From Hydrolagus affinis (taxonomy: Eukaryota), in the NCBI GenBank assembly GCA_012026655.1, contig JAAILG010001144.1, forward strand, positions 1 to 64,000: a stretch of 64,000 nt of DNA, in the 5' to 3' direction. Made by a program: the position numbers and the translations under genes. This document shows, one piece after another, positions 1,853-10,291 of this stretch. Under the pieces are notes generated by a model, which saw nothing but the letters and a program-made list of their open reading frames with translations, did not search any database and was not told the DNA's origin. Position 1 is the first letter of the stretch. The number at the start of each line of letters is the position of its first letter.

Positions 1853-10291
<8,439 letters not shown>

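What the first reader, a model, noticed from the sequence alone, without database searches (positions are those of the whole stretch)
8337..8357. Candidate 21-nt TOLLIP microexon adding a LIR/AIM- or YxxL-like motif before the CUE domain
Seen: a long U/C tract with UGC triplets, cag|GGCTTGAGTATTTTGCTTTGG|gtaagt (consensus donor), phase matching exons 5 and 6, an open frame, and UGCAUG 48 nt downstream. Inclusion gives ...[17 protein letters not shown]. Established: TOLLIP is a ubiquitin/LC3 autophagy and endosomal adaptor; LIR cores are [WFY]xx[LIV], often preceded by acidic residues; YxxPhi is the AP-adaptor motif; downstream UGCAUG promotes Rbfox-dependent inclusion. Inference: a tissue-specific splice switch could add an LC3 or adaptor docking site (E-YFAL). 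I do not recall this exon in the canonical TOLLIP model.
Basis: partly seen in the sequence, partly recalled or inferred. Interest (0 to 1): 0.75.

Follow-up and report, generated by a model that had tools for sequence, protein, structure and literature searches.

The report
Ancient TOLLIP microexon missing in mammals
A 21-base optional exon in the chimaera TOLLIP gene is really spliced in, adds a seven-residue peptide that is almost unchanged in sharks, coelacanth, reptiles and birds but absent from every mammal sequence examined, and likely gives this trafficking adaptor an extra docking site, possibly for the autophagy proteins LC3/GABARAP.

Summary
The exon is real. RNA reads nearly identical to the window join 6077^8337 (7, 2, 6 reads in three libraries of one sample) and 8357^10077 (7, 2, 5), beside the skipping joint (9, 74, 19); inclusion differs between libraries (p about 8e-6). 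Of 370 fetched TOLLIP proteins, 67 carry the insert: 65 LEYFAL, 1 LEYLAL, 1 LDYLTL, in chimaera, sharks, rays, coelacanth, a frog, turtles, squamates and birds. None of 140 mammal or 21 ray-finned fish proteins has it. It sits mid-way in the disordered C2-CUE linker, which in human TOLLIP binds misfolded clients (PMC10690474). The exon is already in automatic RefSeq models; I found no paper on it. The LIR reading is plausible but untested: the anchors never change, yet LEYFAL fails xLIR, and the same pattern fits YxxPhi and ITIM-like motifs. Which tissue includes it is unknown. The scan had not noted it before. Verdict: new member of a known kind (conserved regulated microexon); the apparent loss in mammals is its most interesting trait.

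The parts
8337..8357 (+). 21-nt cassette microexon (phase 1-1) of TOLLIP, adds LEYFALG
   Evidence: Sequence; junction reads on both sides; same peptide in 65 of 370 fetched proteins plus 2 variants
8229..8336 (+). 106-nt AG-exclusion zone and CAG acceptor; U-rich tract; branch-point-like motifs with A at -87, -67, -55; UGC at -51 and -30
   Evidence: branch point not mapped
8358..8363 (+). consensus donor GTAAGT
   Evidence: used in reads
8405..8410 (+). TGCATG (RBFOX motif) at +48, first of four GCAT within 150 nt downstream
   Evidence: binding untested
8179..8184 (+). second TGCATG, 158 nt upstream of the microexon
5987..6077 (+). upstream constitutive exon (exon 5 in the six-exon numbering), first half of the C2-CUE linker
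10077..10291 (+). coding part of last exon: second half of the linker and CUE domain
   Evidence: (97% to Callorhinchus milii TOLLIP)
1853..2002 (+). TOLLIP exon 2
   Evidence: matches P0001
4421..4603 (+). TOLLIP exon 3 (C2 domain)
4851..5003 (+). TOLLIP exon 4 (C2 domain)

Best explanation
This is a real, alternatively spliced 21-nt exon that inserts LEYFALG into the middle of TOLLIP's predicted disordered C2-CUE linker, where it likely acts as a short tyrosine-based docking motif (L-[ED]-Y-x-x-L), most likely a weak LC3/GABARAP-binding site switched on in a subset of cell types. Shown: the exon, both splice forms, unequal inclusion between libraries, near-invariance of the peptide. Predicted: position in a disordered region. 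Inferred: inclusion driven by RBFOX-type factors in neurons or muscle (about 0.6); a residue-specific docking motif rather than filler (about 0.55); ATG8 as the partner (about 0.3-0.35). Inferred history: present in the ancestor of jawed vertebrates, lost in mammals and probably in ray-finned fish.
For: Junction reads 7/2/6 and 7/2/5 against skipping 9/74/19; heterogeneity p=8e-6 by reads, 4e-4 by distinct starts. In little skate the skipping protein is on 90 contigs and the inclusion protein on 9, a hint of restricted inclusion. 65 of 67 inserts identical; the two variants change only E>D, F>L, A>T, never L-2, Y0 or L+3, and both match xLIR (pattern read in PMC5119064). AlphaFold2: 179-234 has pLDDT <50, so the motif at 206-212 would be exposed, whereas the two annotated LIRs (W134, W152 here) lie in C2 beta-strands 131-138 and 149-156. 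The core has no Pro, Gly, Lys or Arg, which PMC7615515 calls inhibitory; the neighbouring YVPI has Pro. Mean hydropathy of the linker barely changes (0.53 to 0.59), which argues against a mere bulk effect. Downstream TGCATG is the motif enriched 3' of alternatively spliced micro-exons (PMC4317164); a long branch-point-to-acceptor region is typical of neural microexons (PMC12871342).
Against: LEYFAL, the form in 65 of 67 carriers, fails xLIR (Phe at X1), has only one acidic residue and a Tyr anchor. The core is degenerate: 8 other matches in the protein, about 5% chance in any 6 free residues. The anchor pattern rests on two variant sequences (chance 0.13 for sparing Y0 and L+3, 0.025 with L-2) and fits YxxPhi and ITIM-like motifs equally. 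The flanking exon-5 part of the linker is almost as invariant, and splicing signals inside a microexon can also hold codons fixed. UGC is not enriched, and predicted accessibility of the -40..-3 region (0.53) equals that of exons 2 and 6. The RNA evidence is one sample of one study, without tissue labels. Loss is judged from protein annotations, not genomes.
Confidence: 0.35

Rival explanations
1. The insert retunes the linker's known job as a sensor of misfolded clients and signalling partners (IRAK, TLR4, STING), or its self-association, by adding two aromatic residues and the linker's only acidic residue; no new dedicated partner is involved.
For: The human linker (181-229) directly binds denatured luciferase and mutant VAPB/Seipin and is the mapped IRAK/TLR4/STING region (PMC10690474 passages). 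The insertion point (after G204 in the 274-aa form) is its centre. Aromatic residues rise from 3 to 5 and acidic from 0 to 1. In that study the C2 LIRs were dispensable.
Against: A generic hydrophobic role should tolerate L/I/V/M or Y/F swaps at the anchor positions; none among 67 inserts. Mean hydropathy hardly moves.
Confidence: 0.3
2. The Y-x-x-L is read by another tyrosine-motif reader: an AP-complex mu subunit (YxxPhi sorting signal) or, once phosphorylated, an SH2 phosphatase such as SHP-1/2 (ITIM-like L-x-Y-x-x-L), linking TOLLIP to clathrin sorting or to TLR/IL-1R inhibition.
For: All three insert forms match Y..[LMVIF] and [ILVS].Y..[LV] (both consensus patterns are recalled, not from a call). 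TOLLIP works in endosomal sorting and inhibits IRAK signalling (passages).
Against: Both motifs normally sit in tails of membrane proteins (recalled), and TOLLIP is soluble. The skipped form already has 4 YxxPhi matches, one 8 residues upstream. No phosphorylation data seen.
Confidence: 0.2
3. The peptide has little function of its own: it is a spacer or minor isoform held invariant mainly by overlapping splicing signals, and was dropped without cost in mammals and teleosts.
For: Absent from 140 of 140 mammal and 21 of 21 ray-finned fish proteins; minor form in two of three libraries.
Against: A dispensable exon would be expected to decay or drift, yet it is identical from chimaera to birds, and the few changes are conservative in the protein. 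Inclusion reaches about 44% in one library.
Confidence: 0.12

Closest known systems
Conserved vertebrate neural microexons (SRRM3/4- and RBFOX-regulated class; e.g. DAAM1 microexon, PMC12056172, seen in search listing only)
   Same: 27 nt or shorter, frame-preserving, strong donor, long AG-free upstream tract, downstream UGCAUG, deep conservation, gene in vesicle/trafficking biology
   Different: Tissue not determined; UGC far from the acceptor and not enriched; apparently lost in mammals and ray-finned fish, where most such exons were catalogued
RefSeq/UniProt predicted long TOLLIP isoforms (e.g. XP_042197452.1 / V9KUM5 Callorhinchus milii, XP_005995333.1 Latimeria, XP_046774208.1 Gallus)
   Same: Same LEYFALG insert at the same junction: the exon is already in automatic gene models
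   Different: No functional or evolutionary description found; here backed by junction reads and a cross-clade tally
Splicing-controlled predicted LIR of PICALM (tandem acceptor removing FDEL; PMC8055015 passages)
   Same: A few residues toggled by splicing in a disordered region of a trafficking adaptor, holding a predicted LIR core
   Different: That is a tandem acceptor shift, not a cassette exon, with an F-type core; here a Y-type core in a separate exon
Known human and mouse TOLLIP isoforms (PMC8086045, PMC1431733 passages)
   Same: Alternative splicing of the same six-exon gene
   Different: Those drop the TBD, C2 or CUE domain or use alternative first or last exons; none described inserts residues in the linker
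Rodent muscle-specific Cltc microexon 33 (PMC13676984, abstract only)
   Same: Lineage-restricted microexon in a trafficking gene
   Different: That one is a young gain that truncates the protein; this one is ancient, in frame and apparently lost

Membership tests
Regulated conserved microexon | Internal exon of 3-27 nt with canonical splice sites | tested here: met
   21 nt, AG/GT, used in reads
Regulated conserved microexon | Frame-preserving and alternatively included | tested here: met
   Both forms in reads and in paired isoforms of 282/275 or 281/274 aa
Regulated conserved microexon | Conserved across vertebrate classes | tested here: met
   67 carriers in 6 clade groups, 65 identical
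Neural SRRM3/4 microexon | Higher inclusion in neurons than elsewhere | not testable with these tools
   Libraries differ (3-44%) but carry no tissue label
Neural SRRM3/4 microexon | UGC enhancer close upstream of the acceptor | tested here: inconclusive
   UGC at -51 and -30 only, near background density
Neural SRRM3/4 microexon | Extended branch-point-to-acceptor distance | tested here: inconclusive
   AG-free zone 106 nt against 22-77 at other acceptors; branch point not mapped; predicted accessibility not special
Neural SRRM3/4 microexon | Inclusion depends on SRRM3/4 | not testable with these tools
   Needs knock-down or a minigene
RBFOX-activated exon | UGCAUG in the proximal downstream intron | tested here: met
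   +48; 14% of 150-nt windows of this intron also hold one; conservation of the motif could not be checked
LIR/AIM motif | Core [WFY]-x-x-[LIV] | tested here: met
   Y208-F-A-L211 in P0001
LIR/AIM motif | xLIR extended pattern | tested here: not met
   LEYFAL fails at X1; frog and lizard variants pass. xLIR derives from 27 motifs and misses some verified LIRs
LIR/AIM motif | Acidic residues upstream of the aromatic anchor | tested here: inconclusive
   One E/D at -1, none further up; a Thr at -4 in some species
LIR/AIM motif | Located in an accessible disordered region | tested here: met
   Predicted pLDDT <50 over 179-234
LIR/AIM motif | Binds the LIR docking site of an ATG8 protein through the two anchors | not testable with these tools
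   Needs a binding assay
YxxPhi AP-mu sorting signal | Y-x-x-bulky hydrophobic (consensus recalled) | tested here: met
YxxPhi AP-mu sorting signal | In the cytosolic tail of a membrane cargo (recalled) | tested here: not met
   TOLLIP is a soluble C2/CUE protein
ITIM | [ILVS]-x-Y-x-x-[LV] (consensus recalled) | tested here: met
   All three insert forms
ITIM | Phosphorylated Tyr recruiting SHP-1/2 or SHIP on a receptor tail | not testable with these tools
   No phosphorylation data; not a receptor

The most novel reading that the evidence does not exclude
A cell-type-specific splice switch gives TOLLIP its only exposed LC3/GABARAP-docking site, turning a PI3P/endosomal cargo adaptor into a true autophagy receptor in neurons or muscle; it was kept letter for letter from sharks to birds, and mammals and ray-finned fish lost it, so human TOLLIP lacks an ancestral mode of action.
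Probability: 0.2. Interest if true: 0.68.

Novelty: new member of a known kind. Interest (0 to 1): 0.42.

Why it matters
TOLLIP's linker was recently shown to be its misfolding sensor and the region that binds IRAK, TLR4 and STING, but how so short a disordered stretch picks clients is open (PMC10690474). A natural, near-invariant seven-residue insert in its centre is a ready-made probe of that question, testable in chick, Xenopus or skate material or by adding it to human TOLLIP. It is also an example of an ancient microexon that the human-mouse-zebrafish catalogues would miss because those lineages appear to have lost it. If it is a LIR, it would be a rare case of an ATG8-docking site encoded by its own microexon: one search for microexon plus LIR found only 2 records. 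The interest is limited because the sequence is already in automatic annotations, the exon seems absent from humans, and the function is unproven.

Tried and rejected
Complex prediction: a GABARAPL2-type protein (P0416, 58-173) with TOLLIP 195-226 gave 'no answer' (0.01, 0.02; mark 0.34; alignments not used, controls not folded; peptides and disordered chains are untested for this tool). It is no evidence either way. The first read lay at 85% likeness showed only the skipping joint among 15 of 226 joints displayed, because repeats crowded the table; the lay at 97% showed all four joints. Contigs of a more distant organism (X1, X2; RNA only by guess) show only skipping; contigs drop rare forms, so this was set aside. 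No indexed RNA holder was listed. RNA-folding accessibility upstream of the exon was not distinctive. Rfam found no structured RNA at the exon. Artefact or chance exon: rejected. Duplicate locus: the microexon region is single-match in the genome. Literature: TOLLIP + microexon 0 papers; TOLLIP + splicing terms 60 papers, 30 listed, none about this exon by title or abstract start; two searches listed nothing relevant. 'TOLLIP' not found in supplements of PMC9303857 (18 of 18 files, incl. 76-row chicken retina microexon list), PMC8187152 (4 files, one scan unread), PMC5630039 (16 of 27 files not searched). The supplement of PMC12871342 (chick microexons) could not be read and the 2019 Nat Ecol Evol microexon paper is not held; either, or VastDB itself, may list this exon. 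No orthologous intron DNA could be fetched, so conservation of splice signals and genomic loss in mammals were not tested directly.

Full report
OBSERVATION. The window holds TOLLIP exons at 1853-2002, 4421-4603, 4851-5003, 5987-6077 and 10077 onward. The last exon's product is 97% identical to Callorhinchus milii TOLLIP and 83-90% to sharks and rays, so the genome is chimaera-like. At 8337-8357 lies cag|21 nt|gtaagt. Exon 5 ends in phase 1, so inclusion adds LEYFALG in frame. It is the only open candidate of 3 in intron 5; a candidate this good appeared in 2.8% of 500 simulated introns. The upstream AG-free zone is 106 nt against 22-77 nt for the other five acceptors (the exon-2 value used a wrong start and was corrected). 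TGCATG sits at +48 and also at -158. UGC occurs only at -51 and -30, close to background.

IT IS SPLICED. Three raw-read RNA libraries (X4-X6; one sample, one study, single-cell polyA, about 27-30% of each read) match the window almost base for base. At 97% likeness they show 6077^8337 in 7, 2 and 6 reads, 8357^10077 in 7, 2 and 5, and the skipping joint in 9, 74 and 19. All have GT..AG ends and come from the sense strand. Counting an inclusion read once, inclusion is about 44%, 3% and 24% (95% intervals 20-70, 0.3-9, 9-45); the libraries differ (chi-square p=8e-6 by reads, 4e-4 by distinct start sites). This fits cell-type-dependent inclusion, but counts are small, the source is one sample and no tissue is named. 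Contigs of a more distant organism (X1, X2) show skipping only. In little skate the exact skipping protein is recorded on 90 contigs and the inclusion protein on 9, another hint of restricted inclusion.

IT IS ANCIENT AND NEARLY INVARIANT. Three homologue searches (one search listed 120 of 280 hits) and three cluster look-ups (at most 15 members shown per cluster) gave 370 proteins. 67 carry the insert: 65 LEYFAL, 1 LEYLAL (Podarcis, P0304), 1 LDYLTL (the frog Pelobates, P0283). By clade, labels assigned by hand from the printed names: cartilaginous fish 17 of 37, coelacanth 3 of 5, amphibians 1 of 5, turtles 10 of 23, squamates 8 of 21 (one a mis-predicted model), birds 28 of 68, lungfish 0 of 2, ray-finned fish 0 of 21, mammals 0 of 140 (platypus, three marsupials, human and mouse included). 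Left out: 46 unnamed or unlabelled rows (none has the insert) and 2 rows lacking the region. Rows are isoforms, not independent species. Many species have paired long and short models (282/275 or 281/274 aa). The simplest history is presence in the ancestor of jawed vertebrates (about 420-450 million years ago, recalled) and loss in mammals and probably ray-finned fish. This rests on annotations; no orthologous intron could be fetched, and gar, zebrafish, Xenopus, crocodilians and lamprey were not among the named rows. Human isoforms listed in PMC8086045 (passages) and mouse variants in PMC1431733 (passages) include no such insert.

WHERE IT SITS. An AlphaFold2 model of the long Callorhinchus isoform (45-sequence alignment, mean pLDDT 58.7) leaves 179-234 unfolded, with the insert (206-212) in the middle. 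PMC10690474 (passages) defines human 181-229 as the disordered region that directly binds denatured luciferase and mutant VAPB and Seipin, notes it as the mapped IRAK, TLR4 and STING binding region, and finds the two C2-domain LIRs dispensable for that pathway. In my model those two LIRs fall in beta-strands of the C2 domain (131-138, 149-156). The insert raises linker aromatics from 3 to 5 and adds its only acidic residue, with little change in mean hydropathy (0.53 to 0.59).

HOW IT LIKELY WORKS. Regulation (inferred): a strong donor, a long upstream AG-free tract and a downstream UGCAUG are the features reported for alternatively spliced and neural microexons (PMC4317164 passages; PMC12871342 abstract and one results section). 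The SRRM4-type UGC signal is weak and predicted accessibility is unremarkable. I put neural or muscle inclusion at about 0.6. Protein (inferred): residue-specific invariance, with change only at -1, X1 and X2, points to a docking motif L-[ED]-Y-x-x-L. For a LIR: core match, acid at -1, disordered context, no Pro/Gly/Lys/Arg in the core (PMC7615515 passages), and both variants fit xLIR (PMC5119064 passages). Against: the dominant form fails xLIR, the core is common (8 other matches), only two variants support the pattern (chance 0.03-0.13), the flanking linker is about as conserved, and YxxPhi and ITIM-like patterns (recalled) fit equally. I rate ATG8 docking about 0.35, retuning of client sensing 0.3, AP-mu or SH2 docking 0.2, little function 0.12.

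COMPARISON AND NOVELTY. It meets the tested features of a conserved regulated microexon. Membership in the neural SRRM3/4 class could not be tested, and it should not be filed as a LIR, YxxPhi signal or ITIM on sequence alone. The exon is present in automatic RefSeq and UniProt isoforms of many non-mammals, so the sequence is not new. I found no paper describing it (supplements), but unread supplements, a paper not held, subscription journals and VastDB may list it. The nearest precedent for splice control of a predicted LIR is PICALM (PMC8055015 passages). Earlier notes of this scan held nothing on it. Verdict: new member of a known kind; interest 0.42, carried by the near-perfect conservation, the apparent loss in the main model lineages and its place in a functionally mapped linker.

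Noticed in passing
P0138, P0179, P0181, P0184, P0186: Several turtle, snake and bird models end shortly after the microexon, giving predicted CUE-less isoforms. Two continue with G-K, as reading into a GTAAG donor would give, an indirect sign that the donor is conserved.
   Followed up: no
P0029: A mis-predicted skink model reads the upstream intron as a Leu/Phe/Cys/Ser-rich run before the insert, consistent with a conserved pyrimidine tract there.
   Followed up: no
window 70-142: tRNA-like match (Rfam RF00005, 29.6 bits), probably the head of a tRNA-derived SINE.
   Followed up: no
window about 5197-5244, 7438-7656, 9677-9726: High-copy short repeats in TOLLIP introns 4 and 5 (depth 10^5-10^6 in run X3, read on both strands in RNA).
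   Followed up: no
window 5995: G>A in about half of the RNA reads of all three libraries, synonymous (Pro); likely an allele.
   Followed up: no
window 3145-3173: A 29-nt AG...GTGAGT candidate pseudo-exon in intron 2, frame-shifting; not covered by the read lays.
   Followed up: no
P0001 192-222: The microexon sits between two similar linker repeats (PTVYQQG and PTVYTQG). The second has drifted to PAVC in most amniotes while the first is nearly invariant.
   Followed up: no
G000 contigs C21814, C14653, C6060, C5667: At least four ATG8-family genes in this genome: one GABARAPL2-like and three LC3-like.
   Followed up: partly
window 15903-16002: A 100-N assembly gap.
   Followed up: no
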